DNA of 58,127 nt from a virus. Below the pieces are notes generated by a model. It saw only the letters and a program-made list of their open reading frames with translations, was not told the DNA's origin and searched no databases. Shown here piece after piece: positions 1 through 58,127 of this stretch. The stretch's first letter is position 1; each line of letters starts with the position of its first letter. The position numbers were made by a program, and so were the translations under genes. The stretch covers positions 1 through 58,127 of IMG/VR virus record IMGVR_UViG_3300038406_000088. One strand, 5' to 3'.

Positions 1-127
1 TATAGAGAGAACAATGCAAAGTATCCCTGCAATCCCTGCAATCCCTGCAAGGCGAAGCCCGAAATCCGGTTACAGAAAGTGAGAATTTTGCCGTGGCGAT
101 TCGAGATCTACGACAGCAGATGCCCGT
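1..127. repeat. Terminal overlap identical to 58001-58127 (circular-assembly overlap)
   Basis: Bases 1-127 are repeated exactly at 58001-58127. The length equals a common assembler k-mer size. Confidence 0.9.
24..50. repeat. 3 tandem copies of TCCCTGCAA (same locus as 58024-58050)
   Basis: The string atccctgcaatccctgcaatccctgcaa was read directly. It is the reverse orientation of the TTGCAGGGA repeats at 57722-57942. Confidence 0.9.
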
Positions 128-608: not shown

Positions 609-760
609 CAGTGTCTAGAAGGCGCAACTACGAGTGTGCAACTTACCTTTCGAGAATTTTTACTTCCCGCAAGCTAAGTTGCTTGTGATACGCTTGACCT
701 GCTAAAACGCTCCGCCAGCGCGGGAACGCTGCGGAGCAGGCCGACTGATTTGGAGTCAAC

Positions 761-5176: not shown

Positions 5177-5278
5177 GTCTTGTGTCCTCTCATCGTGTGT
5201 CCGGTTGAGCCTAACACCCCCCTCACGGAGGTCCGCAAGGGGGTGTCGAGGTTTTCTCAGATTGTGTGTTTGTGCAGG

Positions 5279-5551
5279 TCAGGGAACCATTCCCAGCGCC
5301 TTCGCGGTGTCGCACGGCCACGGAACGCCGTGGGCGTCCGCATCTCCGCACGTCGAGCAGGCCGGTTCGATGTAGCCGTATCGACCGTCAGGCAGCTCCC
5401 CCTGCACGCCTTCGAGGACGGGCGTATGCAGTCGCAACGCCGCGTCGATCATCGCCTTAGCTTCGGCAAGCTCGGCTCGCAGCGTCTCGGTGGGCATCGG
5501 GAAGTTGTACATGGGACCCGAGTCGCGGGTGGGGTACTTTCGTTCGGTCAT
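5279..5551 (-). CDS. hypothetical protein
   Basis: 90-aa ORF. Confidence 0.55.
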   Translation of the reverse strand: MTERKYPTRDSGPMYNFPMPTETLRAELAEAKAMIDAALRLHTPVLEGVQGELPDGRYGYIEPACSTCGDADAHGVPWPCDTAKALGMVP

Positions 5552-18094: not shown

Positions 18095-19894
18095 ATGTCA
18101 AAGGACAACGAGGCGGGGCAGACCCTGCCGGACGGGGGCGACGAGCTTACCGCCGCATTGGCGGGTAAGTCCGAAGCCGAACTGTCCAACATGCGTGACG
18201 ATCTGGTCGCGGCGTTTGACGCCATCTACCAGGACGGCAAAGCGGATATCGACGCTGACGGTTTCGCGAAACTCGAAGTCATCAAGACGCAGATCCTCGC
18301 GGTGAACACCACGGCCGAAGAGGTCGCGACAACCAAGCGCGCGAACGCCGAACGGGCCGCCGCTCTCCGCGAGGCCATCAAGCCCGCGAAGACTGAGGCT
18401 GTCGAAGACGGTGAAGGCGGCACCGAAGCCGGGGACGACGCTCCCGAGGCTGCGGCTCCCGAAGCGAGGGAACTCGTTTCCGCTGGCATCGATGAGAAGG
18501 TGCTCACCGCTTCCATCACGACCGCCATCGGCGAGACCATGAAGGCGTTCGCAGGTGACTACCTCAAGCCGACGACCGACCTGAACCAGCGCGTGCGACT
18601 CGGCACGATTCAGCAGTACGCGCCCGACGCCAAGGTGCACGAGGCTCGCTCTGAGGCCGTGATCGTGGCTTCGGCCGACATCCCCGGCTTCGCACAGGGT
18701 GGCCGACTCGACAACATCACGCAACTCGGTGAAGCAATGCACCGACGCGCGAAGATGCTCCCGGTCGGGCGCACGGGCAACCCCGAAGCGGTTCCGGTCG
18801 CGAGCCTGGAGCGCGAGTTCACGTTCACCCTGAACAAGAACTCCACGCCTGACGACGTGAACGAAGTCCTCAAGGCCGCTGCTGATGAGGATGTCCTCGT
18901 GGCCGCTGGCGGATGGTGCGCGCCTTCGGAGATCTCTTACGATTTCTTCAACGTCGTCTGCGAAGACGGCATGATCGACCTGCCGACCGTGGGTCTGTCG
19001 CGCGGCGGCGTGCAGTACCCGACCTCGCCGAGCTTCGGCGACCTCGCGTCTGACCCGGGCATCGTCTGGACCTGGACCGAGGCCGACGACATCGAAGCGG
19101 TCGACAGCTCGTCTGTCTTCAAGCCGTGTGTGCGTGTCGAGTGCCCGACGTTCGTTGACCGGCGCGCCGACTGTGACGGTTTCTGCGTCACGGCCGGTAA
19201 CCTGATCGACTACGCGTACCCCGAACTGATTCCCAACTGGCTGCGGCTGGTCATGGCGATCCGTGCGAAGGCAACGAACGCGCGCATCATCGATCTGATG
19301 CTGAACGGCGGCGGCTCAGGTGACGCGATCTCCGCGTCCATCGCGGTTGACCACTCCGGCCTGCTCGGTGCGACCACTTCGGCGCTGCTCAGCTCCATCG
19401 AGCTGTCGGCGGTCGACTACCGCGAGAAGTACTCCATGTGCTTTGACGCGATCCTCGAAGTCGTCATGCCCCGTTGGGCTCAGGCGGTCATCCGCGCTGA
19501 CCTCGCGAACCGCGACGGTATCGACGTCTTCGGCGTCACGGACGGCATGATTGCCGACTGGTTCAACATCCGTGGCGTCCGCGTGCAGTTCGTCGGCGAC
19601 TGGCAGGTCCGGTCCGGCACGGACCCGGGCAGGGCCACCCCGGCCACCGGCTGGCCGCTGACCATGGATTACATGATCTACGCTCCGGGCACCTTCATCC
19701 GAGGCAACTCGATGTCGCTCGACCTCGGCGTTGTTCGTGACTCCGTGCTGAACTCCACCAACGACCACACGGCCGCATGGGCTGAGGACTGCTATGCGCT
19801 GCTGAAGCCGGGGCACGAGTCCCGCGTGGTCACGGTCGACATCTGCTCGTCTGGCGAGATCGGTGCCCGCACGTTCACGTGCGAGGGCTCGTAA
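18095..19894 (+). CDS. major capsid protein with a long N-terminal scaffold-like (delta) domain
   Basis: AGAGGGAA ribosome-binding site. The roughly 170-aa acidic helical N-terminus is followed by an HK97-like body. Confidence 0.75.
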   Translation: MSKDNEAGQTLPDGGDELTAALAGKSEAELSNMRDDLVAAFDAIYQDGKADIDADGFAKLEVIKTQILAVNTTAEEVATTKRANAERAAALREAIKPAKTEAVEDGEGGTEAGDDAPEAAAPEARELVSAGIDEKVLTASITTAIGETMKAFAGDYLKPTTDLNQRVRLGTIQQYAPDAKVHEARSEAVIVASADIPGFAQGGRLDNITQLGEAMHRRAKMLPVGRTGNPEAVPVASLEREFTFTLNKNSTPDDVNEVLKAAADEDVLVAAGGWCAPSEISYDFFNVVCEDGMIDLPTVGLSRGGVQYPTSPSFGDLASDPGIVWTWTEADDIEAVDSSSVFKPCVRVECPTFVDRRADCDGFCVTAGNLIDYAYPELIPNWLRLVMAIRAKATNARIIDLMLNGGGSGDAISASIAVDHSGLLGATTSALLSSIELSAVDYREKYSMCFDAILEVVMPRWAQAVIRADLANRDGIDVFGVTDGMIADWFNIRGVRVQFVGDWQVRSGTDPGRATPATGWPLTMDYMIYAPGTFIRGNSMSLDLGVVRDSVLNSTNDHTAAWAEDCYALLKPGHESRVVTVDICSSGEIGARTFTCEGS

Positions 19895-28512: not shown

Positions 28513-28845
28513 ATGACTCGTAAGAGCTTTACCACTCGCAAAGACCGCATCGATTTCGACATCGATGAAGAGGTGTTCTACCTCCGGCCGAACGTTTCCG
28601 CAGGTCAGATGTTCAACGTGTCGTCCCTCAAGGGCAAGATGGACGCGGCGATGGGTGACCCCGACAGCAACGCGGGAAAAGTGCTCATGCAGGAACTCAG
28701 GGAAGTCTTCGAAGAGGAATCGTTCAATCGATTCGAACGGCGATTTTGGGGCGAGTACGGACCCATCGATATCCAGACGTTCAATGAAATCATCGAATGG
28801 ATCTTCGGCGAAGCACTGGGAAAAGAGCCTACCCCGCAGTCCTAG
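28513..28845 (+). CDS. tail assembly chaperone (G-like, unshifted product)
   Basis: Sits before the tape measure gene and contains a slippery heptamer near its 3' end. Confidence 0.7.
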   Translation: MTRKSFTTRKDRIDFDIDEEVFYLRPNVSAGQMFNVSSLKGKMDAAMGDPDSNAGKVLMQELREVFEEESFNRFERRFWGEYGPIDIQTFNEIIEWIFGEALGKEPTPQS

Positions 28846-37634: not shown

Positions 37635-37867
37635 CGGAGTCGACGCGCCTTCCCGCTGTCCTCGAACCGTTGCGCCAGACGCTCAGCGTGCCGAATGGAG
37701 CGGCACGAGCGCGTGTCGATGGCCTTGGTCCCCCACTTATCGTCAACGGACTGCACCCACAGATTCGCCTTACCGGTCGTTGTCGCCAGCAGGATGAACC
37801 TGTACCTGAAACTTTCCGCGTTGTACCTGTTCGGGCTCTCTGCGTCTTTCTGCCATTCGAGTCTCAT
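37631..37867 (-). CDS. hypothetical protein
   Basis: 78-aa ORF with a 4-nt overlap. Confidence 0.5.
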   Translation of the reverse strand: MRLEWQKDAESPNRYNAESFRYRFILLATTTGKANLWVQSVDDKWGTKAIDTRSCRSIRHAERLAQRFEDSGKARRLR

Positions 37868-39690
37868 CGGTCATTCCTCCTGTTGAACGCTGCCTCAAGT
37901 TTATCTCTGCGGTATCCTCGCACCTTCTCACCGTTGCCCATTGCGAAGGCGTTCGGCTCAACCTCGACGCCGTGCACGCGCATACGCACGTGCACCTCAG
38001 TGTCAGCGACACCGAGCGCGATAGCGAGCCGAGCTGTTGACACACCTTGCAGCCCCTCGGACAGTTCAAGCGCGACCACAAGCGCATCTTTCGCGTCGAC
38101 CACGGGGGCGAGCGTCTTCGCCCGACGCCACGGCGAACGCGGTTCAAGCGCCTTCACGTGCTCTTTCGTCATGTGCCACACGCGGGTAGGGTCCGGTGTC
38201 CGGTCCTCACCTTGCACGCGAACCAGCGACCACCCGCCCTTGAGGAGGTCTTCTGCGTGCCATCCCTTAGCGGTGGCGTCCTCGCCAAGCACGTTGCGAG
38301 CCTCGGTGGGGGACGATACCGCCATGCACACCTGCGAGGTCAGCTGAGCCGAGATAGCGGAGTCGAGACCCTTACCGGGGCCGGTCACTGTGGGTTTCTG
38401 CGTGGCCCACCAGAGCGGAATCTCTGCCGATCGTGCGCGTCGAGCGATCGAACGCAGTCCGGTCACGGCGTCGGGCACTTCCGACATGAGTTCTGCACCC
38501 TCATCGACAACAACAACGATGCGCGGACGTTCTGGCGTAGGCTCCCAGGTGTCGAGGCTTTCGGTACGCATGATCGCCTCACGCTCTTTCATCTCGGTCA
38601 CTAGATCGCCAATGACCGACTGGATACCGTCTGCCTCGGATTCGACGCGAGCGACATGTGACCACAGCGCGCCTTCTACTTTCAGGTCGATGATGACGAT
38701 CATGGTGTTCGGGAGCGCGAGCGCTTCCGCCATGAGCACACGCAACGCCACCGACTTGCCAGCACCGGACATGCCCGCGACACTGAGCCGGTCGGTCACG
38801 TCGACACTGACGACTTCGCCCGTGTCCGCGTTGAGTCCCAGTCCCTTTCGTTCCGGTGACCAGGTGAGGTCAAGGTCCCGCACGCGAGTGCGGATGCGAA
38901 GGACAGCCCGGTCTGCGGTACCGCCCGGCTTGACTTGCGTCTTGACCTCATCAGGAACCGCGAGCAGTGCTCGCAGTTGATCGACCTGGGTGTCCAGCTT
39001 TGCTGGCGTCCACAGTCCCGCGAACTCCATGGGGATCAAGATGCCGGACTCATCGATGACCGGAGCACCGGGGAACACCTCGTGCAGCTTGCGATCGGCG
39101 GCGTTGGCCTCCCAGGTGTGCACCCGATCGATGATCGCGGATTCGTGCCTGTTGGGCTTGAGACCCGCCTCAGCGTGTTTCCGGGAGAACAGGCGCGTCT
39201 TCTCTTCGACGGGGGCGAGCGTGGTCACCGACTGCACCGGCTCCGCGTCGTCGCGGTGCGTCCAGCCCAGCCACGCCAGGTATCCGTACGCAGCAGGCCA
39301 TGCGAGGAGCGCACCGGGGTTGCCTTCGATGAGCATCCACGGGGGAACGATGAGCGCGCTCGCAGGGACAGCGAGCGTGAGCGCGCATCGGAGCGCGCGC
39401 GTTCCGAATGCGCGCGTGCTCACCTCAATGTCGGTGAGCGCGTTCGCGCGCGCGGGAGGCGCGCTGTGCGCGCGCCTGTTCTTCGACATGCGCGCGTGCG
39501 CGCGCATCGCTCGTTGATGCTGAGCGCTGAGCGCGCGCGCATCGCGCTCCTTGATGTGCGCCTCGATGCCTTCCGCGCGCGTCCATGCGCGCGCATCTTC
39601 GGCGAGCGCGCGCGCACCCCGCAGGGTGTAACCCCACGAGGTGCGCGCCATGCGCGCGTATGCGCGCTCGTTGTTCTCTTCGGCGCTCAT
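37864..39690 (-). CDS. FtsK/SpoIIIE/TraB-like DNA translocase
   Basis: Walker A GMSGAGKS and Walker B VVVVDEGAEL. N-terminal hydrophobic segment and an Arg/Ala-rich N-terminus. Confidence 0.8.
   Translation of the reverse strand: MSAEENNERAYARMARTSWGYTLRGARALAEDARAWTRAEGIEAHIKERDARALSAQHQRAMRAHARMSKNRRAHSAPPARANALTDIEVSTRAFGTRALRCALTLAVPASALIVPPWMLIEGNPGALLAWPAAYGYLAWLGWTHRDDAEPVQSVTTLAPVEEKTRLFSRKHAEAGLKPNRHESAIIDRVHTWEANAADRKLHEVFPGAPVIDESGILIPMEFAGLWTPAKLDTQVDQLRALLAVPDEVKTQVKPGGTADRAVLRIRTRVRDLDLTWSPERKGLGLNADTGEVVSVDVTDRLSVAGMSGAGKSVALRVLMAEALALPNTMIVIIDLKVEGALWSHVARVESEADGIQSVIGDLVTEMKEREAIMRTESLDTWEPTPERPRIVVVVDEGAELMSEVPDAVTGLRSIARRARSAEIPLWWATQKPTVTGPGKGLDSAISAQLTSQVCMAVSSPTEARNVLGEDATAKGWHAEDLLKGGWSLVRVQGEDRTPDPTRVWHMTKEHVKALEPRSPWRRAKTLAPVVDAKDALVVALELSEGLQGVSTARLAIALGVADTEVHVRMRVHGVEVEPNAFAMGNGEKVRGYRRDKLEAAFNRRNDR
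39381..39668. repeat. alternating-GC motif patch 1 (about 15 runs containing GCGCGC)
   Basis: Hand count. Includes the palindrome ATGCGCGCGCAT and a purine/pyrimidine alternation longer than 20 nt at 39487-39507. Confidence 0.85.
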
Positions 39691-40148
39691 CAGAATCCGC
39701 CAAGAGCCTCAGCAACGAGACCCTGCACAATGACCGTCAGGCCGCCGTACAGTACTTGAGCGAGCCCGAAAACCCACCCGTCCGCGCCGTGCGCAGCGAT
39801 GGGGCCGATCAGGAGCGCCCAGATAGCGGCGTTGTTGTAGTCGGGATCGCTCCAGATGTCCGCCACGGTCGCCACGATGGCGAGCACGCAGATAACACCC
39901 ATAACGGCGTGAGCGGGCACAGCACCGAAGTTGCCCAACAGGCTGGTGAATCGGTCTGCGATCCACGTTGACCACGTGGATGCGTAGATGAGGAACGAGG
40001 CGAAGATACCAAGCCCGAGAGCCACGTACGCCGCCTTCGTGCCCCGGCCCCACTTGTAGTTGATGATGTGCGCGGCGATGAACAGCACCACGGCGATCGG
40101 GCCGGTAGCGGGGTTGTTGGTGGCGTCTACAGCTGCCATAACTTCCAT
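39690..40148 (-). CDS. membrane protein (about 4 transmembrane helices)
   Basis: 152 aa, very hydrophobic. Overlaps the FtsK-like start by 1 nt. Confidence 0.6.
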   Translation of the reverse strand: MEVMAAVDATNNPATGPIAVVLFIAAHIINYKWGRGTKAAYVALGLGIFASFLIYASTWSTWIADRFTSLLGNFGAVPAHAVMGVICVLAIVATVADIWSDPDYNNAAIWALLIGPIAAHGADGWVFGLAQVLYGGLTVIVQGLVAEALGGF

Positions 40149-40192
40149 CAGTGCATCCTTTCGTCTGTGTCTTAGGTCTGCATTAAATTATA
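40149..40192 (-). promoter_or_regulatory. promoter (-10 TATAAT) plus conserved leader
   Basis: The minus strand reads TATAAT...CAGACCTAAGACACAG..GAAAGGATGCA..ATG. A paralogous copy lies at 43979-44016. Confidence 0.5.
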
Positions 40193-40239
40193 CACCTGCC
40201 CGGCACGGCACACCAGGTGGGATGCCCTCGTGGTCGCGG

Positions 40240-40316
40240 TGACCTGCGGAAACGCTTCGAGAGCGGTGCTCTCGGCACACCGTGCCGGTGTGCCAAAACA
40301 GCGTTTCCGCAGGTCA
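40240..40316. repeat. 16-bp perfect inverted repeat enclosing two hairpins (three-way junction or cruciform)
   Basis: TGACCTGCGGAAACGC pairs with GCGTTTCCGCAGGTCA. The inner hairpins are at 40258-40274 and 40274-40294. Confidence 0.8.
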
Positions 40317-40332
40317 ACCGTGGTTTAGTGGT

Positions 40333-40386
40333 GTGCCAGCGGGTGTGCCGCTGGCACGGTCCCGGCACACCTTCCCCAAGGGTGTG
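40333..40386 (-). terminator. two tandem hairpins after the stop at 40402
   Basis: GTGCCAGCG-7 nt-CGCTGGCAC and CACACC-9 nt-GGTGTG. Confidence 0.4.
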
Positions 40387-40401
40387 TCGGTCGCTGTGCC
40401 G

Positions 40402-41643
40402 CTAGTACCCGAGCGCCTTGCGCACCGGGGTGAGCCACTTGCCCGCGTGTCCGATGGACTTCTCGGTGGCAGCAGCCAGCCACTTCTGCGTAGGGAGCTT
40501 GCCCCGCTCCGCCACGAACGCAGTCATGCGGACCTTGACATCCTCGGGGATGGTTTCCTGTGCGGTGATCGCCTCGATCATGGCGTCGTTGCCATGCGCG
40601 CGCGTGGCAGCCTCGTGCGCGCTCACCGTCTCCGATGCGCGCGTGTCCTCGGTGAGTGCGCGCGCATCGTCAGGAACATGCGCGCTCACTTCGAGTGCGC
40701 GCGCGGGAGGCGCGCTCACCGGTCGCACGGCGCGCGCGTTGTGCGTGCGCGCGCTCATCGATGCGCGCTCGTTCCAAGGGTTCATGTGCGCGACCGCTTC
40801 GGGAGCGAGCGCGCGCGCACCGACATAGCGCGCGGCGATGCGCGTCTGAATGCGCGCGCGCACTTCCGGCGTGAGGATGCCGAGCGCATCCGCGCGCGCC
40901 CATGCGCGATCGTATGCGCGCTTGTAGAACGCGCGCGTGATCTTGGGTCCGACGTTCGCGGCGTACGCGCAATTGACGATCTGCGTGATGAGTCGTTCGG
41001 TAAGCACCGTGTTCGCGTCCTGCGACGTAGCCTTGCCACGCTTCATACGCCACCAGGTGACCAGAGCGGACGGCTTGTGCGGACGCCCGAAGGTGATGAC
41101 CACGTGCCACGCGACAGCCGCCAGGAGCGGCCACAGCGCGAAGATAGGGCTACCTCCACCCCACCAGGCGATCACTCCCATGAGTGAGGCCATCATCCAA
41201 ACACCGGCTTCGTACCGGTTGAACCCTTCGCCCCTGGTCATGTGCCGAAGGGACAGCGCGCCCAGGATCGCAAGCCACGCCTCGAAGACGATCACAGCGG
41301 AGATAGCCGCATCAACGGAGGTGAGCCCAATGTGCTGGATAGCAGTGATCGTGGCGTGCGCGCTCAAGTTGGTGGCCGCGAGCGCGACGAGCGCGACCGC
41401 GCTCATGAGCGTGATGCGCAGACGCGCGTCTGCGCGCGCGCCTGATGCGCGCGCATCGGCCTTGCGTTGCGCGCGCGCTTCCATGTCGGGGCGCTTGATC
41501 TCTCCCCAAATGCGCGCGCGTTCCCGTGCGCGCTCGCGCGCGCCCTGAGAGGTGCGCCAGAGGATGAGCGCGAGCATGAGCGCGCCGAGCGCGCACGCGC
41601 TCATGAGTGCGCCTGCTGGTGTTGACGTGAAATCGTTCATCAT
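40402..41643 (-). CDS. polytopic membrane protein (DUF2637-like?) with Arg/Ala-rich termini
   Basis: The central section has about 5 hydrophobic helices. Start chosen at MMNDF after a GAAGGA ribosome-binding site. The family assignment is from memory only. Confidence 0.5.
   Translation of the reverse strand: MMNDFTSTPAGALMSACALGALMLALILWRTSQGARERARERARIWGEIKRPDMEARAQRKADARASGARADARLRITLMSAVALVALAATNLSAHATITAIQHIGLTSVDAAISAVIVFEAWLAILGALSLRHMTRGEGFNRYEAGVWMMASLMGVIAWWGGGSPIFALWPLLAAVAWHVVITFGRPHKPSALVTWWRMKRGKATSQDANTVLTERLITQIVNCAYAANVGPKITRAFYKRAYDRAWARADALGILTPEVRARIQTRIAARYVGARALAPEAVAHMNPWNERASMSARTHNARAVRPVSAPPARALEVSAHVPDDARALTEDTRASETVSAHEAATRAHGNDAMIEAITAQETIPEDVKVRMTAFVAERGKLPTQKWLAAATEKSIGHAGKWLTPVRKALGY
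40594..40937. repeat. alternating-GC motif patch 2 (about 16 runs containing GCGCGC)
   Basis: Hand count, with recurring (A/G)TGCGCGC context. Confidence 0.85.
41355..41605. repeat. alternating-GC motif patch 3 (about 8 runs containing GCGCGC)
   Basis: Hand count. Confidence 0.8.
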
Positions 41644-41683
41644 GAGTCCTTCATCTTGGGGGACTCCCACCATAGCACGAAAG

Positions 41684-41712
41684 AAAGCGGGCACCCAAGG
41701 GGTACCCGCTTT
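41684..41712 (-). terminator. intrinsic terminator-like hairpin
   Basis: The minus strand reads AAAGCGGGTACC-cctt-GGGTGCCCGCTTT followed by CTTTCTTTCG. Confidence 0.6.
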
Positions 41713-41955
41713 AAACGAGCGGCGGGAGTCGAACCCGCTTTGATACTCAACAGGACACTAGCCGATACCCTGCCTTCAAACTGCCCTTGCCGATCGGACG
41801 GCTCAGGATTCCGCCGGTACTCATCTCGTGTGGTGAACACCCGACCCATTACGATCGTCGTCCACACCCCGGAAGAGATACCTTCCGAGGTCCTGTACCC
41901 CGCAAGCGTAAACGCTCAATAACGTTCCCTACACGGTGCTGACCGGTACCTCATT
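41713..41955 (-). ncRNA. structured RNA with a tRNA-like T-arm (ncRNA or attenuating leader)
   Basis: A promoter lies upstream and a terminator downstream. GCGGG-TTCGACT-CCCGC T-arm at 41722-41738. No credible ORF. Confidence 0.45.
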
Positions 41956-41961
41956 GTCCTA

Positions 41962-41990
41962 AGCCTAACAGGTGTCCCCGATGCTGTCAA
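41962..41990 (-). promoter_or_regulatory. consensus-like promoter
   Basis: The minus strand reads TTGACA-N17-TAGGCT. Confidence 0.6.
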
Positions 41991-42005: not shown

Positions 42006-42025
42006 GAACGTTTCCGCAGGTCAGA
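42006..42025 (+). repeat. 20-nt exact repeat GAACGTTTCCGCAGGTCAGA (copy B)
   Basis: Identical to 28590-28609. Spans the stop codon of the gene at 42021-42584. Confidence 0.9.
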
Positions 42026-42584
42026 CCAGGTACCACAGGTACTTGGTACCTTCGGTGTTCTCCGTGCGGACCTTCCCGTCACTCTGGAGACGGCGCAGCG
42101 AGGTGTACACGTTCGCCTCCTTCTCGCGGAGTTCCGTAGCAAGCTGGGGCTTCGAGAGCCCTTCCGGGTTCTCGGCGAGCAACTGGAGAATCGTAGCGTT
42201 GCGCTTCGCCACCGCAGCGGACATCGGACGGCCGCGCTTGGGTTCGGGCGTGTACTCGGTGTCGACGCGGTGGGTGCCCCCTTCGAGTCGGCCGCCATTG
42301 GGGTCGGACTCGGCCTCGGCAATTGCCGCCATTGCCTCAGGGTCAGCGAGAATGGCTGCCGTCTCCTCTTCCGAGGTGTACTCGGGTTCAGGCGAATCCG
42401 CGTGAACCAACGCAGCCGCTTCCGCAGCCGCTGCCTTCATCGCTTCGAGATCAGGCTTCGGCTCCGCAACCGGGGTGGGCGTCGCACGAGGCGCAGCCTT
42501 CGGCGCAGGCTCTTCCGCCTTCCGCTGCATCTCCGCGCGCTTCTCGAACGCGTTCTTTTTCTGTCGGTTTGTCGCCACGTACAT
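42021..42584 (-). CDS. winged-helix DNA-binding protein with a Pro/Ala/Glu-rich N-terminus
   Basis: The C-terminus ILQLLAENPEGLSKPQLATELREKEANVYTSLRRLQSDGKV resembles MarR/ArsR-type winged helix-turn-helix domains. Confidence 0.5.
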   Translation of the reverse strand: MYVATNRQKKNAFEKRAEMQRKAEEPAPKAAPRATPTPVAEPKPDLEAMKAAAAEAAALVHADSPEPEYTSEEETAAILADPEAMAAIAEAESDPNGGRLEGGTHRVDTEYTPEPKRGRPMSAAVAKRNATILQLLAENPEGLSKPQLATELREKEANVYTSLRRLQSDGKVRTENTEGTKYLWYLV

Positions 42585-55950: not shown

Positions 55951-55980
55951 GAAACCCCCGGGTGTGAGCCCGGGGGTTTC
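55951..55980 (+). terminator. hairpin terminator
   Basis: GAAACCCCCGGG-6 nt-CCCGGGGGTTTC forms a 12-bp stem. Confidence 0.65.
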
Positions 55981-56032
55981 CCATCCCGCTGTACTTCATG
56001 CGTCGACTGCAACGACAACGAAAGGAACGTAC

Positions 56033-57688
56033 GTGGACAACGATACCACGCCATCGAACAACGGCAACATGGGCAAAATGAGCGAATTGGACCTGCAACA
56101 ATACATGCTCGGGGAACTCGCACCGAAGCAGCCCGCCGAACCCGTGCCCACCAGCACCGGTGGTGACCAGCTCACCATGACCCCTGACGGGCATCTCACC
56201 ACGCACATCACCATCCCTGACACGCTCAAACTCCTCCCTCGGTGCCTCGACTTCGGCGAGCCCGTTCCTGGACCCCACAGGCCGGGAGCGGTCGCGCGTC
56301 TCATCGCGCACATGCTCGCCGATGACGAGGGTGTGCACCTCAGGCACTGGAGGGACGGTTGGTACATCTGGCGGGACCAGCGAACCGGAGGGCGATACCG
56401 ACCCTTCGGGCAGGTCGACAACAAGTACGCCGTTCCCGACATGGTTCGTGCGCTCATGGACAACGCCACCTATCAGCACGAGACGCAGCGAAAAGGCGTA
56501 GAGGTCAAAGACTGGGACCCCAACAACCGGAGTGTCAAAGAGGTCACCGACGCTCTCGCCGCTGCCTCTCGCCCCGATGAGACCATGTCCGCAGGAACGT
56601 GGATCGGCAACGACGCCGCGACGCGGGAACTCGAAACACCAGGCAACGAGGTCACCTGCGTCGCCAACGGGTTGCTGTGGTGTCCCACGTCCGGAGGCGC
56701 GGACGCTCGCCAGCTCATGCCGCACACACCCGCGTTCTTCACCGATGCCGCCGTGGCCGTCGACTACGATCCCGAAGCCGAATGCCCGCTGTGGCTGAAA
56801 TTCCTGGACGAGCTGTGGCCTGACGACCACGCCTCGCAGCGGCTCCTGCAGGAATGGTTCGGATACGTCCTCACACGCTCGACATCGCTGCAGAAGATCC
56901 TGGTCCTTGTCGGGCCGCGCCGTTGCGGCAAGGGGACAGCCGCGTGGGTGCTTGAGGAACTGCTCGGCGGTCGCAGCGAAGTCGACCATCCGCTCATGTC
57001 CACGTTCGGCGACAAGTACGGGCTGTCTAACATGCTCGGGAAGCGCCTTGCCATCTTCGGTGACGCGCGCATGGAGAAGTCCGAGGCGTCGATCGTGGAA
57101 AAGCTCCTCATGATCTCGGGTGAGGACCCCGTGACCGTGGAACGCAAGTACCTCTCGCCGGTCATCACCAAACTCGACGTGCGTCTCATGATCATGTCCA
57201 ACTCCATGCCCGACCTCAGAGACACCACGGGCGCGCTGGCCGGTCGATTCCTGCCGCTGCCCATCAGGATCGAAGGGTTCTACGGCAAGGAGGACCGAAA
57301 CCTGAAGCACAAGCTCGGGTCGGAACTCACCGGCATTCTCAACTGGGCGCTGGAAGGCGCGGACCGGCTGTGGGCCAACGACGGGAAGTTCACCGTGGGG
57401 GAGAACGTTAAGGACGCCATGAGCAAGGCCGACCGTTCCGGTAGCCCGCTTAAGGCGTTCGTCATGGATCGGCTTGTGTTCGAGGCGGGCTCCGCAGCCA
57501 CCAAGGACAGCGTGTACTGGGCTTACGAGGCGTGGTGCGAGGCGGAGGGATACCACAAGAAGGGCAAAAACGTGTTCTTCCGGGAACTGTTCGCCATCTA
57601 CCCGAGCCAGCTCGGCGACGGGAGGCACACGATCCAGGGGAAGCAGCAGACGGTGCTCACCGGGGCGTATCTTAGCTCCGAATTCTGA
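56033..57688 (+). CDS. P4/D5-type primase-associated SF3 helicase
   Basis: Walker A GPRRCGKGT and Walker B-like LAIFGDARME. GTG start after a GAAAGGAA ribosome-binding site, downstream of the hairpin. Confidence 0.7.
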   Translation: MDNDTTPSNNGNMGKMSELDLQQYMLGELAPKQPAEPVPTSTGGDQLTMTPDGHLTTHITIPDTLKLLPRCLDFGEPVPGPHRPGAVARLIAHMLADDEGVHLRHWRDGWYIWRDQRTGGRYRPFGQVDNKYAVPDMVRALMDNATYQHETQRKGVEVKDWDPNNRSVKEVTDALAAASRPDETMSAGTWIGNDAATRELETPGNEVTCVANGLLWCPTSGGADARQLMPHTPAFFTDAAVAVDYDPEAECPLWLKFLDELWPDDHASQRLLQEWFGYVLTRSTSLQKILVLVGPRRCGKGTAAWVLEELLGGRSEVDHPLMSTFGDKYGLSNMLGKRLAIFGDARMEKSEASIVEKLLMISGEDPVTVERKYLSPVITKLDVRLMIMSNSMPDLRDTTGALAGRFLPLPIRIEGFYGKEDRNLKHKLGSELTGILNWALEGADRLWANDGKFTVGENVKDAMSKADRSGSPLKAFVMDRLVFEAGSAATKDSVYWAYEAWCEAEGYHKKGKNVFFRELFAIYPSQLGDGRHTIQGKQQTVLTGAYLSSEF

Positions 57689-57720: not shown

Positions 57721-57763
57721 CTTGCAGGGATCGGGGGTCGATCCCTGCAAGCTATCCCTGCAA
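57721..57763. repeat. 13-bp-arm palindrome CTTGCAGGGATCG/CGATCCCTGCAAG plus one further ATCCCTGCAA
   Basis: Read directly. Confidence 0.9.
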
Positions 57764-57856
57764 GTTGGGGTGTTTGGCTTCAGAGAGTTATCGATTCTAA
57801 GCTGTATGTGTTGTACTGAAAAGACTACATAGCGTAGTCGAGCTGATTTTGGGGCC

Positions 57857-57942
57857 TTGCAGGGATGCTTGCAGGGATACTGCAGGGATGCTTGCAGGGA
57901 TAAAACACCCTCTGACCTGGTACTTGCAGGGATTGCAGGGAT
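57857..57942. repeat. six TTGCAGGGAT repeats (one is CTGCAGGGAT)
   Basis: Copies start at 57857, 57869, 57880, 57892, 57924 and 57933. The first four are spaced 11-12 bp apart. Confidence 0.9.
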
Positions 57943-58000
57943 AAAACCTAACCAGTTCAGGAGTGTGTAAATATACAGTGTACGGAGTAGTGTTGTTCTG

Positions 58001-58127
58001 TATAGAGAGAACAATGCAAAGTATCCCTGCAATCCCTGCAATCCCTGCAAGGCGAAGCCCGAAATCCGGTTACAGAAAGTGAGAATTTTGCCGTGGCGAT
58101 TCGAGATCTACGACAGCAGATGCCCGT
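58001..58127. repeat. terminal overlap identical to 1-127
   Basis: Exact 127-bp identity with the window start. Confidence 0.9.
58023..58050. repeat. three tandem inverted-orientation copies (ATCCCTGCAA-TCCCTGCAA-TCCCTGCAA)
   Basis: Read directly. They follow the roughly 37% GC stretch at 57961-58020. Confidence 0.9.

What the first reader, a model, noticed from the sequence alone, without database searches (positions are those of the whole stretch)
42006..42025. A 20-nt exact repeat links the early regulatory region to the tail-assembly-chaperone gene
GAACGTTTCCGCAGGTCAGA occurs at 42006-42025. There it spans the stop codon of the winged-helix gene and lies about 16 bp upstream of the -35 element of the TTGACA/TAGGCT promoter. 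The identical 20-mer occurs at 28590-28609 inside the chaperone gene, about 210 nt upstream of the frameshift site. A 15-nt core recurs at 40302-40316, and a 16-nt copy lies inverted at 40240-40255.

My rough estimate of the chance expectation for a 20-nt identity in 58 kb is below 0.01.

The early genes are transcribed from the minus strand, so minus-strand RNA covering 42006-42025 is perfectly complementary to the plus-strand late mRNA at 28590-28609. Two readings are possible. Either this is a dispersed operator for one DNA-binding protein (stoperator-like), or it is a trans antisense interaction that couples early transcription to expression of tail genes.
Basis: partly seen in the sequence, partly recalled or inferred. 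Interest (0 to 1): 0.7.

Follow-up and report, generated by a model that had tools for sequence, protein, structure and literature searches.

The report
Widespread actinobacterial 20-bp DNA box
The 20-base repeat is real, but it does not privately link early and tail genes in this phage: it is one copy of a roughly 20-bp DNA box found almost unchanged in hundreds of actinobacterial phages, plasmids and chromosomes, probably a docking site for an unidentified conserved protein.

Summary
GAACGTTTCCGCAGGTCAGA is exact at 28590 and 42006, and the 15-nt core is exact at 40240(-) and 40302(+).

- **Chaperone-gene copy:** it drifts by synonymous changes at the same rate as the rest of the gene in relatives, and only near-identical genomes keep it. 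The antisense model therefore has no comparative support.
- **Intergenic copies:** these are strongly conserved. The copy at the wHTH stop codon sits 15 nt upstream of a conserved TTGACA-17-TAnnnT promoter, and the inverted pair lies inside a GGCACACC repeat array.
- **Distribution:** the same motif (consensus GAACGTTTCCGCAGGTCAGAGC) occurs in at least 120 genome loci (mostly Streptomyces), 402 actinophage records and about 40 plasmids. Almost all copies are in unannotated DNA: near cos ends, beside attP cores, within iteron arrays or after tRNA genes.
- **What it is not:** it has no Rfam family, no consistent fold, no fixed orientation to transcription and no shared neighbouring gene.

Best reading (about 0.45): a duplex-DNA site for a conserved, probably host-encoded, factor, used much as enterobacterial elements use IHF or Ter sites. 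I found no published description.

The parts
42006..42025 (+). Full-consensus motif copy. It overlaps the TGA stop of the wHTH gene and lies 15 nt upstream of the -35 of a minus-strand promoter.
   Evidence: The copy is exact in 8 related IMG/VR loci. A 28-nt block, CCTGAACGTTTCCGCAGGTCAGACCAGG, is invariant in 9 genomes.
41962..41990 (-). Sigma-A-type promoter: TTGACA (41985-41990), 17-nt spacer, TAGGCT (41962-41967).
   Evidence: Read directly from the sequence. In relatives the -35 and the spacing are kept, while the -10 varies within TAnnnT (TAGGCT, TATTGT, TAGGGT, TATGGT). The consensus scanner did not list it, because TAGGCT matches only 3 of 6 positions of TATAAT.
42021..42584 (-). 187-aa protein with a C-terminal winged-helix/HTH domain. 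Its stop codon lies inside the motif.
   Evidence: Weak Pfam HTH_IclR match, E = 0.0055. No PHROG family. No tblastn hit in the phage collection. The C-terminal 70 aa are conserved in relatives.
40240..40255 (-). Motif copy forming the left arm of an inverted pair.
   Evidence: Conserved in L002, L004, L007, L010 and L011. In three of these five relatives the first base changes C to T in both arms.
40301..40316 (+). Motif copy forming the right arm of the inverted pair, 47 nt from the left arm.
40207..40371 (.). Array of the 8-mer GGCACACC/GGTGTGCC surrounding the inverted pair. It lies in the 253-nt gap upstream of the operon holding the 152-aa membrane-protein gene and the FtsK-like gene.
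   Evidence: 6 of the 8 genome copies of this 8-mer fall here; sequence.
28590..28609 (+). Full-consensus copy inside the putative tail assembly chaperone gene (28513-28845), encoding NVSAGQ. It is lineage-specific and shows no selection as a nucleotide motif.
5264..5287 (+). Degenerate copy (GTGTGTTTGTGCAGGTCAGGGAAC). The TGA stop of the upstream minus-strand ORF appears to lie inside it, and a TTGCGG-19-TAGGCT promoter-like site follows. The layout matches that at 42006.
   Evidence: Position-weight score 19.6, with none this high in 10 shuffles. The ORF boundary and promoter-like site were read by eye from the sequence.
689..712 (-). Degenerate copy (GAGCGTTTTAGCAGGTCAAGCGTA) in an intergenic gap about 50 nt upstream of an HNH-like + strand ORF.
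   Evidence: Position-weight score 16.8, with 0.1 expected per shuffled genome; sequence.
57910..57920 (+). Half copy (CTCTGACCTGG) embedded in a TTGCAGGGAT iteron array with an AT-rich tract. This is probably the replication origin, just downstream of the D5-like primase-helicase gene.
   Evidence: Pfam assignment of gene 55964-57688.

Best explanation
**What it is.** The 20-mer is this phage's version of a self-contained sequence box of about 19-22 bp, with consensus GAACGTTTCCGCAGGTCAGAGC. The box is shared almost unchanged across Actinobacteria and their mobile elements.

**How it most likely works.**
- It acts as double-stranded DNA, as the recognition site of a conserved sequence-specific protein.
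- That protein is most likely host-encoded, because the replicons carrying the box share no gene.
- Mobile elements place the box beside sites where large nucleoprotein complexes assemble or need insulating: cohesive ends, attP cores, iteron arrays of origins, partition or transfer loci, and gene-end/promoter junctions.

**In this phage.**
- The working copies are the intergenic ones: 42006 (and the degenerate 5264), each at a stop-codon/promoter junction, and the inverted pair 40240/40302 at the centre of an 8-mer repeat array.
- The copy in the tail-chaperone gene is a lineage-specific occurrence with no detectable selection.
- There is no evidence for early-late antisense coupling.

**Shown versus inferred.**
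- Shown: the distribution, the conservation, the context grammar, the lack of a fold and the lack of a fixed orientation to transcription.
- Inferred: protein binding, host origin of the factor, and an architectural or roadblock role.
For: **Breadth**
- The exact 20-mer is in 16 IMG/VR loci in at least 5 unrelated contexts.
- Runs of 17-20 exact nucleotides covering CGTTTCCGCAGGTCAGAGC occur in 402 phage records: 355 Mycobacterium, 25 Streptomyces, 13 Gordonia and 3 Corynebacterium. Almost all listed rows show no annotated feature under the match.
- About 40 actinobacterial plasmids also carry it.

**Context grammar**
- It lies next to the tmRNA-type attP core in Adephagia, and on both sides of that core in Squirty.
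- It lies 30-100 nt from genome ends in BFK20, BigNuz, Gandalph (two copies), PegLeg and many Cluster F phages.
- It is interleaved with iterons:
  - CL31: three copies, each 4 nt before a GTGTGGTA iteron, with an AT-rich tract after the primase/polymerase gene.
  - pRL2: among GTTCAGTT repeats.
  - Plasmid NEAU-sy36: among GTGTGGCAC repeats.
  - L005: among GGTGACAG repeats at the end of a RepA-like ORF (my reading of the translation; not scanned against Pfam).
  - Paenarthrobacter: in a cluster of DnaA-box-like sequences upstream of a dnaB-like gene.
- In the window it lies inside the GGCACACC array, and a half copy lies inside the TTGCAGGGAT array.

**Selection on intergenic copies**
- A 28-nt block is invariant in 9 genomes, while the DNA beyond the -10 is barely alignable.

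**Self-contained**
- A logo from 69 independent contexts shows information only within the roughly 22-nt box.

**Not an RNA element**
- There is no Rfam match.
- Solitary copies do not fold better than shuffles on either strand.
- Both orientations relative to local transcription occur, roughly 8 versus 6 among the loci I inspected.

**Not tied to a neighbouring gene**
- Proteins flanking the motif in different replicons share no similarity.
- The wHTH protein is absent from the phage collection.
Against: - No binding protein is identified, and nothing here shows binding.
- Near-perfect conservation of 19-20 nt across genera is tighter than for most architectural-protein sites such as IHF or Fis. 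parS and Ter are precedents for such conservation.
- From general knowledge, the known actinobacterial host factor for phage integration (mIHF/sIHF) is reported to bind DNA without sequence specificity.
- About half of the contexts have an inverted partner at variable distance (3-52 nt). The window family shows a change in both arms that preserves pairing. Both points fit a hairpin, cruciform or terminal-inverted-repeat reading.
- Host chromosomes seem to carry only one to a few copies. Most of these (80 of about 120 loci) lie beside one tRNA-Met gene and could be relics of integrated elements rather than host regulatory sites.
- Orientation rules are tendencies, not laws. At right genome ends about 59 phages carry the motif on the minus strand and 6 on the plus strand, and these phages are heavily redundant by cluster.
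Confidence: 0.45

Rival explanations
1. RNA-level or structural element. The motif is one arm of a hairpin that acts as a factor-independent or factor-assisted transcription terminator/insulator or as an RNA processing site at gene ends. In the DNA version it forms a cruciform.
For: - Palindromic versions exist. In 27 Streptomyces loci a perfect 16-bp-stem hairpin lies between a galE-like gene and a cation-efflux gene (both named from reading the translations).
- Inverted pairs occur in the window (47-nt spacer), L040, Squirty and JustBecause.
- Three of the five relatives change the first base in both arms, which preserves pairing.
- Many copies sit just after a gene or tRNA 3' end, and two window copies contain the upstream gene's TGA stop.
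Against: - Solitary copies, which are the majority, show no significant fold on either strand.
- The spacing between arms is highly variable.
- Both orientations relative to transcription occur.
- Tandem direct copies interleaved with iterons (CL31, pRL2, Gandalph) do not fit a hairpin.
- No U-tract rule emerges from the logo.
- There is no Rfam family.
Confidence: 0.17
2. Phage-encoded regulator site. The wHTH protein encoded next to the 42006 copy, or another phage protein, binds the dispersed copies as operators, in the manner of stoperators.
For: - The motif abuts the wHTH gene and a conserved promoter in all 9 related genomes.
- The wHTH domain is conserved alongside the motif.
- The intergenic copies lie at operon junctions.
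Against: - The motif is identical in hundreds of replicons that lack any homologue of this protein.
- There are only 4 exact and 2-3 degenerate copies.
- The motif lies downstream of the wHTH gene, not upstream of it.
- Copies occur in both orientations.
- The chaperone-gene copy is unselected.
Confidence: 0.12
3. Relic or active ends of a very small mobile or recombining element. The motif is a terminal inverted repeat or a recombination core spread by transposition or site-specific recombination, not by selection for a host-factor site.
For: - Inverted pairs enclose short variable cargo (window, Squirty, L040, and the galE-adjacent hairpin with almost no cargo).
- In Streptomyces, direct repeats TCTGACCTGCGG and TCTGACCTGCAG flank a block of about 100 bp beside tRNA-Met.
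- There are three tandem copies in L059.
- The motif is associated with integrase genes and tRNA/tmRNA attachment sites.
Against: - No transposase or recombinase is consistently nearby.
- Copy number per genome is low.
- Both relative orientations of pairs occur (JustBecause versus the window).
- Strong purifying selection on single copies at fixed distance from a promoter, and fixed 4-nt phasing with the CL31 iterons, both indicate function in place.
Confidence: 0.12
4. Trans antisense coupling. Minus-strand early RNA across 42006-42025 pairs with the late chaperone mRNA at 28590-28609 and modulates tail gene expression.
For: The two sites have perfect 20-nt complementarity between opposite-strand transcripts. 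The promoter and gene layout make it plausible that both are transcribed.
Against: - The chaperone copy is exact only in four loci whose chaperone protein is identical to the window's.
- Relatives at 87-98% identity have 1-3 substitutions in the 20-mer (all but one synonymous), at the gene-wide rate. Relatives at 70% identity have 8-9 differences.
- The same motif is conserved in hundreds of phages with no chaperone-gene copy.
Confidence: 0.03

Closest known systems
IHF-binding sites of enterobacterial mobile elements (lambda attP H sites and cosB I1, P1 parS, pSC101 and R6K origins)
   Same: - A host-factor site reused by unrelated phages and plasmids.
- It is placed between element-specific repeats: arm-type sites, terminase-binding repeats, iterons or ParB boxes.
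- It is found at attP, near cos, in origins and in partition sites. These are the contexts seen here.
   Different: - IHF sites are degenerate (WATCAANNNNTTR), whereas this box is about 19-20 nt and nearly invariant.
- Actinobacteria lack IHF.
- Their mIHF/sIHF is reported as not sequence-specific (general knowledge).
- No binding was tested here.
Ter sites bound by Tus (E. coli chromosome, R6K, R1) or RTP (B. subtilis)
   Same: - An asymmetric, high-information site of about 20-23 bp.
- Few copies per replicon.
- Found on chromosomes and plasmids.
- Often in inverted pairs a few tens of bp apart and close to origins.
- Orientation matters.
   Different: - No Tus or RTP homologue is known in Actinobacteria (general knowledge; not tested here).
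- Many copies here lie at attP, at cos ends and after tRNA genes.
- Polarity relative to origins or ends is only a tendency.
Stoperators of Cluster A mycobacteriophages
   Same: A short asymmetric DNA site dispersed in a phage genome, mostly in short intergenic gaps.
   Different: From general knowledge, stoperators:
- number 20-35 per genome;
- are oriented with transcription;
- are cluster-specific;
- are bound by the phage's own repressor.

Here there are 4-7 copies in both orientations, and the same sequence occurs in unrelated phages, plasmids and hosts.
parS (ParB) and NBS (Noc) sites
   Same: - Precedent for a 14-16-bp protein site kept identical across wide taxonomic ranges and copied onto plasmids and phages.
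- The left part, (T/C)GTTTCCG, resembles a parS/NBS half-site (TGTTTCAC / TATTTCCC).
   Different: - parS and NBS are palindromes, whereas this box is asymmetric and its right half is unrelated.
- The resemblance covers about 6 of 8 bases of one half-site and may be coincidental.
REP/BIME and MITE-like extragenic palindromes
   Same: Extragenic location, often after gene ends, occurring as singletons or inverted pairs.
   Different: - REPs are high-copy and species-specific.
- This box is low-copy per genome and conserved across genera.
- It is mainly on mobile elements.
sps palindromes bound by SpdA2, and 8-bp TraB recognition repeats (clt), of Streptomyces conjugative plasmids (PMC4170104, PMC4447253)
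   Same: - A short motif conserved among otherwise variable Streptomyces plasmids.
- The window carries an FtsK/TraB-like gene beside an 8-mer repeat array that surrounds the box.
   Different: - sps is a 12-bp palindrome inside spdA genes.
- TraB repeats are plasmid-specific 8-mers.
- Neither matches this 20-bp box.

Membership tests
Stoperator-type dispersed operators (Cluster A mycobacteriophages) | Tens of copies spread over the genome. | tested here: not met
   4 exact-core copies, plus 2 significant and 1 marginal degenerate copies.
Stoperator-type dispersed operators (Cluster A mycobacteriophages) | Sequence specific to one phage immunity group and bound by that phage's own repressor. 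| tested here: not met
   The same box is in 402 phage records of many clusters and genera, in plasmids and in chromosomes. The adjacent wHTH has no homologue in the phage collection. Binding itself is not testable here.
Stoperator-type dispersed operators (Cluster A mycobacteriophages) | One orientation relative to the direction of transcription. | tested here: not met
   The window has an inverted pair, and the copies at 42006 and 28590 lie in oppositely transcribed regions on the same strand. Other replicons show both orientations.
Trans-acting antisense RNA / mRNA pair | Extended complementarity between two transcripts. | tested here: met
   20 of 20 nt between the minus-strand transcript at 42006-42025 and the plus-strand transcript at 28590-28609.
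Trans-acting antisense RNA / mRNA pair | Both partners conserved, or co-varying, in relatives. | tested here: not met
   The target copy decays at the synonymous background rate, while the 42006 copy is invariant.
Trans-acting antisense RNA / mRNA pair | Both RNAs present together, with duplex-dependent effects. | not testable with these tools
   No expression data are available.
Intrinsic (hairpin) transcription terminators | A stable stem-loop formed by the element, usually followed by a U tract. | tested here: inconclusive
   - Palindromic versions form a 16-bp stem.
- Solitary copies fold no better than shuffles.
- The logo shows no conserved T tract.
- The scanner found no terminator at the window copies.
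Known RNA families (Rfam 15) | Match to a curated covariance model. | tested here: not met
   Only tRNA was found in host loci. Nothing was found at the motif, even at E up to 10.
Architectural host-factor sites (IHF-like usage) | Placement beside attP cores, cos ends, and origin or partition repeats in unrelated elements. | tested here: met
   Adephagia, Squirty, BFK20, BigNuz, Gandalph, CL31, pRL2, NEAU-sy36, L005 and the window arrays.
Architectural host-factor sites (IHF-like usage) | Bound and bent by a host nucleoid-associated protein. | not testable with these tools
   Needs EMSA, footprinting or ChIP.
Replication-fork or translocase barrier sites (Ter-like) | An asymmetric site of about 20 bp, low in copy number, in inverted pairs or next to origins. 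| tested here: met
   Logo; inverted pairs; origin-adjacent copies.
Replication-fork or translocase barrier sites (Ter-like) | A cognate contrahelicase protein (Tus or RTP) and polar arrest. | not tested
   No search for such a protein was possible without a candidate. Polarity relative to genome ends is a tendency only.
REP / MITE-type repeats | High copy number in the host genome, or terminal inverted repeats with target-site duplications and an associated transposase. | tested here: inconclusive
- No transposase is nearby.
- Direct 12-nt repeats flank a 100-bp block beside tRNA-Met.

The most novel reading that the evidence does not exclude
Actinobacteria possess a so-far undescribed, highly sequence-specific DNA-binding factor whose 20-bp site (GAACGTTTCCGCAGGTCAGAGC) is a common currency of their mobile elements. 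Phages, plasmids and integrative elements of Mycobacterium, Streptomyces, Corynebacterium, Gordonia and Arthrobacter all plant it beside cos ends, attP cores, iteron origins and promoters. Often the copies are mirror-image pairs flanking the site of DNA cleavage or exchange. The factor would shape or insulate these complexes, as a functional analogue of IHF sites or Ter sites in a phylum where neither is known.
Probability: 0.4. Interest if true: 0.8.

Novelty: new variant of a known kind. Interest (0 to 1): 0.6.

Why it matters
**Reach.** If the box is a host-factor site, a single 20-bp sequence marks functional non-coding regions (origins, packaging sites, attachment sites, insulated promoters) in hundreds of actinobacterial phages and plasmids. 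These include the large mycobacteriophage collection used for genetics and therapy, where such regions are almost entirely unannotated.

**Directly testable.** It gives a one-step handle: an oligonucleotide pull-down to find the protein. It also gives an annotation rule for cis-acting regions, and a candidate part for vector design in Streptomyces and Mycobacterium.

**For this phage.**
- It relocates attention from a supposed early-late antisense link to two cis-regulatory regions (40.2-40.4 kb and 41.96-42.03 kb).
- It points to a probable origin at 57.7-58.05 kb.

Tried and rejected
- **attP core of this phage.** Rejected: no integrase was found among the large ORFs I scanned, and there are several copies per genome.
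- **Part of a tRNA, tmRNA or other stable RNA.** Rejected: ARAGORN and Rfam find only the neighbouring tRNA, and the motif lies 11-12 nt outside it. In Adephagia it lies outside the 24-bp tmRNA core described in PMC3203893.
- **Sequencing or assembly artefact or adapter.** Rejected: the motif occurs in finished isolate genomes, at conserved positions and in frame in a gene.
- **CRISPR repeat remnant** (it ends in GCGGAAAC). Rejected: there are no arrays, and it is abundant in phages of M. smegmatis, which lacks CRISPR-Cas (general knowledge).
- **Promoter for SigA, an ECF sigma or a SigF-type sigma.** Rejected: no -10 or -35 partner is conserved at any distance in 69 independent contexts.
- **LexA, DnaA, GlnR, KstR, DasR or dif sites.** Compared from memory only; none fits. 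Not counted as tests.
- **Shared neighbouring regulator.** An all-against-all BLASTP of flanking proteins from 9 replicons found nothing.
- **Literature.** String searches with overlapping 10-13-mers found only a phiJoe cloning primer that starts in a one-mismatch copy. The Cluster K, CL31, extrachromosomal-prophage and SpdA2 papers do not describe the motif.
- **Low-GC hits** (L014, L016, L086, a faecal phage, and Salmonella or Rhizobium plasmids). Treated as chance-level matches, given the size of the collections.
Full report
**1. The observation**

GAACGTTTCCGCAGGTCAGA is exact at 28590-28609 and 42006-42025, both on the + strand. No further match appears with up to 3 mismatches, against 0.01 expected in shuffles. 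The 15-nt core CGTTTCCGCAGGTCA is exact four times: 28593+, 40240-, 40302+ and 42009+.

- The 42006 copy contains the TGA stop of the minus-strand gene 42021-42584. This is a 187-aa protein with a weak IclR-type HTH match.
- On the minus strand the motif is followed after 15 nt by TTGACA, a 17-nt spacer and TAGGCT.
- The 28590 copy lies in gene 28513-28845, where it encodes NVSAGQ.
- That gene precedes an 821-aa ORF and ends with an overlapping -1 frame and the slippery G_GGA_AAA at 28818-28824, 209 nt downstream. This layout is typical of a tail assembly chaperone. No Pfam or PHROG family matched, so the assignment is an inference.

The expectation for any 20-nt identity in 58 kb is about 0.007. 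Block shuffles gave longest repeats of 15-17 nt in 28 of 30 trials.

The window is a circular assembly: 1-127 equals 58001-58127. The genome is 60% G+C and actinophage-like. It encodes:
- WhiB;
- an FtsK-like protein, closest to those of Streptomyces BD phages;
- PolA;
- an SNF2 helicase;
- PrimPol;
- a D5-like primase-helicase;
- no integrase among the ORFs I scanned.

**2. The chaperone-gene copy is not maintained**

Fourteen loci encoding relatives of the chaperone were fetched.
- Only four loci whose chaperone protein is identical to the window's keep the 20-mer.
- Relatives at 87-98% protein identity all read GCT instead of GCA in the core. Some also have GGC for GGT, CAA for CAG or AGC for AAC.
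- Relatives at about 70% identity encode AGIAAGQ, with 8-9 differences in the 20 nt.
- At positions where the amino acid is unchanged, third-position divergence in the motif codons is 0.12-0.29. In the rest of the gene it is 0.11-0.25.

So the copy evolves as ordinary coding DNA. Parsimony suggests that the exact match in the window arose from a 19/20 ancestor by one synonymous change. How a near-match first arose there (chance, or a short conversion tract) cannot be decided.

**3. The intergenic copies are strongly maintained**

The 42006 copy:
- It is exact in eight related contigs.
- The 28 nt CCTGAACGTTTCCGCAGGTCAGACCAGG are invariant in nine genomes.
- The -35 and the spacer are nearly invariant.
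- The -10 varies only within TAnnnT.
- The DNA beyond the -10 is barely alignable.

This supports a real promoter, with the motif fixed at about -51 to -70.

The inverted pair 40240/40302:
- It is conserved in five relatives.
- Three of them change the first base C to T in both arms.
- It lies at the centre of a GGCACACC/GGTGTGCC array. Six of the eight genome copies of that 8-mer fall in 40207-40371.
- The array lies upstream of the membrane-protein and FtsK-like genes.

Degenerate copies from the position-weight scan:
- 5264-5287 scores 19.6, with none this high in shuffles.
- 689-712 scores 16.8.
- At 5264 the TGA stop of the upstream minus-strand ORF appears to lie inside the motif, and a TTGCGG-19-TAGGCT site follows (read by eye). 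This repeats the 42006 layout.

A half copy, CTCTGACCTGG, lies at 57910-57920. It sits inside a TTGCAGGGAT iteron array with an AT-rich tract, directly after the D5-like helicase gene. This is probably the origin.

**4. The motif is not private to this phage**

IMG/VR viral contigs: the exact 20-mer occurs in 16 loci.
- 3 are in the chaperone-gene context.
- 8 are in the wHTH/promoter context.
- 5 are in unrelated contexts.

Arthrobacter, Paenarthrobacter, Amycolatopsis, Saccharopolyspora, Krasilnikovia and Mycobacterium also appear.
- 80 loci place the motif 11-12 nt after a tRNA-Met gene. A conserved block of about 60 nt and a second partial copy follow.
- 27 loci carry a perfect palindromic version between a galE-like gene and a cation-efflux gene, both named from reading the translations.
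- Other copies lie beside a tRNA-Lys-like 3' end, beside an Arthrobacter tRNA-like 3' end, and in a Paenarthrobacter cluster of DnaA-box-like sequences upstream of a dnaB-like gene.
- Another lies upstream of a tyrosine-recombinase-like ORF in an element that also encodes a relaxase-like protein.

Annotated phage collection: 402 records carry runs of 17-20 exact nucleotides covering CGTTTCCGCAGGTCAGAGC. They comprise 355 Mycobacterium, 25 Streptomyces, 13 Gordonia and 3 Corynebacterium phages, plus Saccharomonospora and Nocardia. In nearly every listed row there is no annotated feature under the match.

Plasmids: about 40 actinobacterial plasmids also carry it.

The few low-GC or non-actinobacterial hits are at the level expected by chance for collections of this size.

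**5. Context grammar elsewhere**

| Context | Replicon | Arrangement | Calls |
|---|---|---|---|
| Attachment site | Adephagia | Motif 14 nt from the tmRNA-type core, between arm-type repeats and the core | 28, 30; PMC3203893 |
| Attachment site | Squirty | CTCTGACCTGCGG and CGTTTCCGCAGGTCAGAGC flank the core as a mirror pair | 37, 38 |
| Attachment site | phiScoe55, phiJoe | A one-mismatch copy precedes attP and the serine integrase gene | 24, 65, 67 |
| Genome end | BFK20 | 30 nt from the left end | 61, 67 |
| Genome end | BigNuz | 54 nt from the right end | 29, 31 |
| Genome end | Gandalph | Two direct copies about 50 and 85 nt from the right end, beside TTCGATC repeats and an HNH gene | 66, 67 |
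| Genome end | PegLeg, JustBecause | Several copies in 1.3-3 kb of non-coding right end | 35, 38, 59, 67 |
| Genome end | Many Cluster F phages | About 66 nt from the right end | 86 |
| Repeat array | CL31 | Three direct copies, each 4 nt before a GTGTGGTA iteron, then an AT-rich tract, just after the primase/polymerase gene | 62, 67 |
| Repeat array | pRL2 | Two direct copies among GTTCAGTT repeats upstream of a parA-like gene | 40, 43 |
| Repeat array | Plasmid NEAU-sy36 | Among GTGTGGCAC repeats | 42, 43 |
| Repeat array | L005 | Among GGTGACAG repeats at the end of a RepA-like ORF (my reading of the translation) | 15, 58 |

At right genome ends the motif is mostly on the minus strand (about 59 phages against 6), but these phages are redundant by cluster.

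**6. What it is not**

- There is no Rfam family, even at permissive thresholds.
- Solitary copies fold no better than shuffles on either strand.
- A logo from 69 independent contexts shows information only in gAACGTTTCCGCAGGTCAGAgc. No promoter element or T tract is conserved at any fixed distance.
- Both orientations relative to local transcription occur.
- Proteins encoded next to the motif in nine replicons share no similarity.
- The window's wHTH protein has no tblastn hit in the phage collection.
- I found no paper that prints the motif. The only hit is a phiJoe primer.

**7. Interpretation**

The data fit a self-contained box of about 20 bp, read as duplex DNA by a conserved sequence-specific factor. 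Because the carriers share no gene, that factor is most likely host-encoded.

The contexts are those in which enterobacterial elements use IHF sites: attP, cosB, origin iterons and parS. The asymmetric, high-information, low-copy character, sometimes with mirror pairs, also recalls Ter sites.

Binding, the identity of the factor and its effect (bending, roadblock or insulation) are inferences.

Weaknesses:
- The conservation is tighter than for typical architectural sites.
- mIHF/sIHF is reported as non-specific (general knowledge).
- Half of the contexts have inverted partners at variable spacing, and the window family shows a pairing-preserving change. This keeps a structural (hairpin or cruciform) reading and a terminal-repeat reading alive.

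I put the host-factor reading at about 0.45. The rivals are:

| Rival reading | Confidence |
|---|---|
| RNA-level or structural element | 0.17 |
| Phage-encoded operator | 0.12 |
| Mobile-element relic | 0.12 |
| Antisense coupling | 0.03 |

**8. Verdict on the finding**

- The repeat is real and non-random.
- The early-late link through the chaperone gene lacks comparative support.
- The broader phenomenon appears undescribed in the literature I could search, and it is directly testable with an oligonucleotide pull-down.

Noticed in passing
window 57722-58051 and 1-51: - Eleven of the twelve genome copies of TTGCAGGGAT lie here. Most of the direct copies are in 57857-57942 and three inverted copies are at 58023-58050, flanking an AT-rich tract.
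- A half copy of the motif (57910-57920) lies inside the array.
- The array begins about 35 nt after the D5-like primase-helicase gene (55964-57688), so this is probably the replication origin.
   Followed up: partly
window 40207-40371: - Six of the eight genome copies of GGCACACC/GGTGTGCC lie here, in both orientations, with small internal hairpins (GAGAGCggtGCTCTC and GGCACACCgtgccGGTGTGCC).
- The region is upstream of the 152-aa membrane-protein gene and the FtsK/TraB-like gene.
- It resembles the 8-bp repeat clt loci of Streptomyces conjugative plasmids, or an iteron array.
   Followed up: partly
window 39379-41610: - GCGCGC-rich palindromes of the ATGCGCGCGCAT type are repeated many times. 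They lie inside the coding sequence of the FtsK-like N-terminus and of the 430-aa membrane protein, giving RAHARM/ARERAR peptide repeats.
- A 20-nt exact repeat, GCGCGCGCGGGAGGCGCGCT, is at 39446 and 40697.
- The pattern is reminiscent of the sps palindromes inside spdA genes of Streptomyces plasmids (PMC4170104), but the sequence is different.
   Followed up: no
window 41695-41961: About 250 nt lie between the conserved TTGACA/TAGGCT promoter and the start of the 430-aa gene, with no convincing ORF. This segment is poorly conserved in relatives. It could be a long leader or a small RNA.
   Followed up: no
window 1-127 and 58001-58127: The window ends are an identical 127-nt overlap. The contig is therefore a circular assembly of a 58,000-bp genome, and the physical ends are unknown.
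   Followed up: yes
L017 4801-5010 (Streptomyces sp. YU58) and about 80 other Streptomyces loci: tRNA-Met is followed, in order, by:
- the 20-mer after 11-12 nt;
- a conserved 60-nt block (ATTTTGTCCTGTCGGATCGTCAACTTTGCCTGAACGGACTGAATCCGCTGCTCGTGAGTT);
- a second partial copy (TCTGACCTGCAG) about 100 nt on.

This looks like a small conserved element or an integration scar.
   Followed up: partly
L162 1150-1400 (Corynebacterium phage CL31, record 18350-18600): An unannotated origin-like region lies just after the primase/polymerase gene. It has three motif copies phased 4 nt before GTGTGGTA iterons (seven iterons in all), followed by a TA-rich tract.
   Followed up: partly
L059 (Streptomyces sp. 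SM11), about 1310-1370: Three tandem 18-nt copies of the motif lie directly beside a tRNA-like 3' end.
   Followed up: no
window 37864-41694: The phage carries a module resembling a Streptomyces plasmid transfer/spread region: an FtsK/TraB-like translocase, two membrane proteins of 152 and 430 aa with no family match, and an 8-mer repeat array. This is unusual in a genome in which I found no integrase.
   Followed up: no
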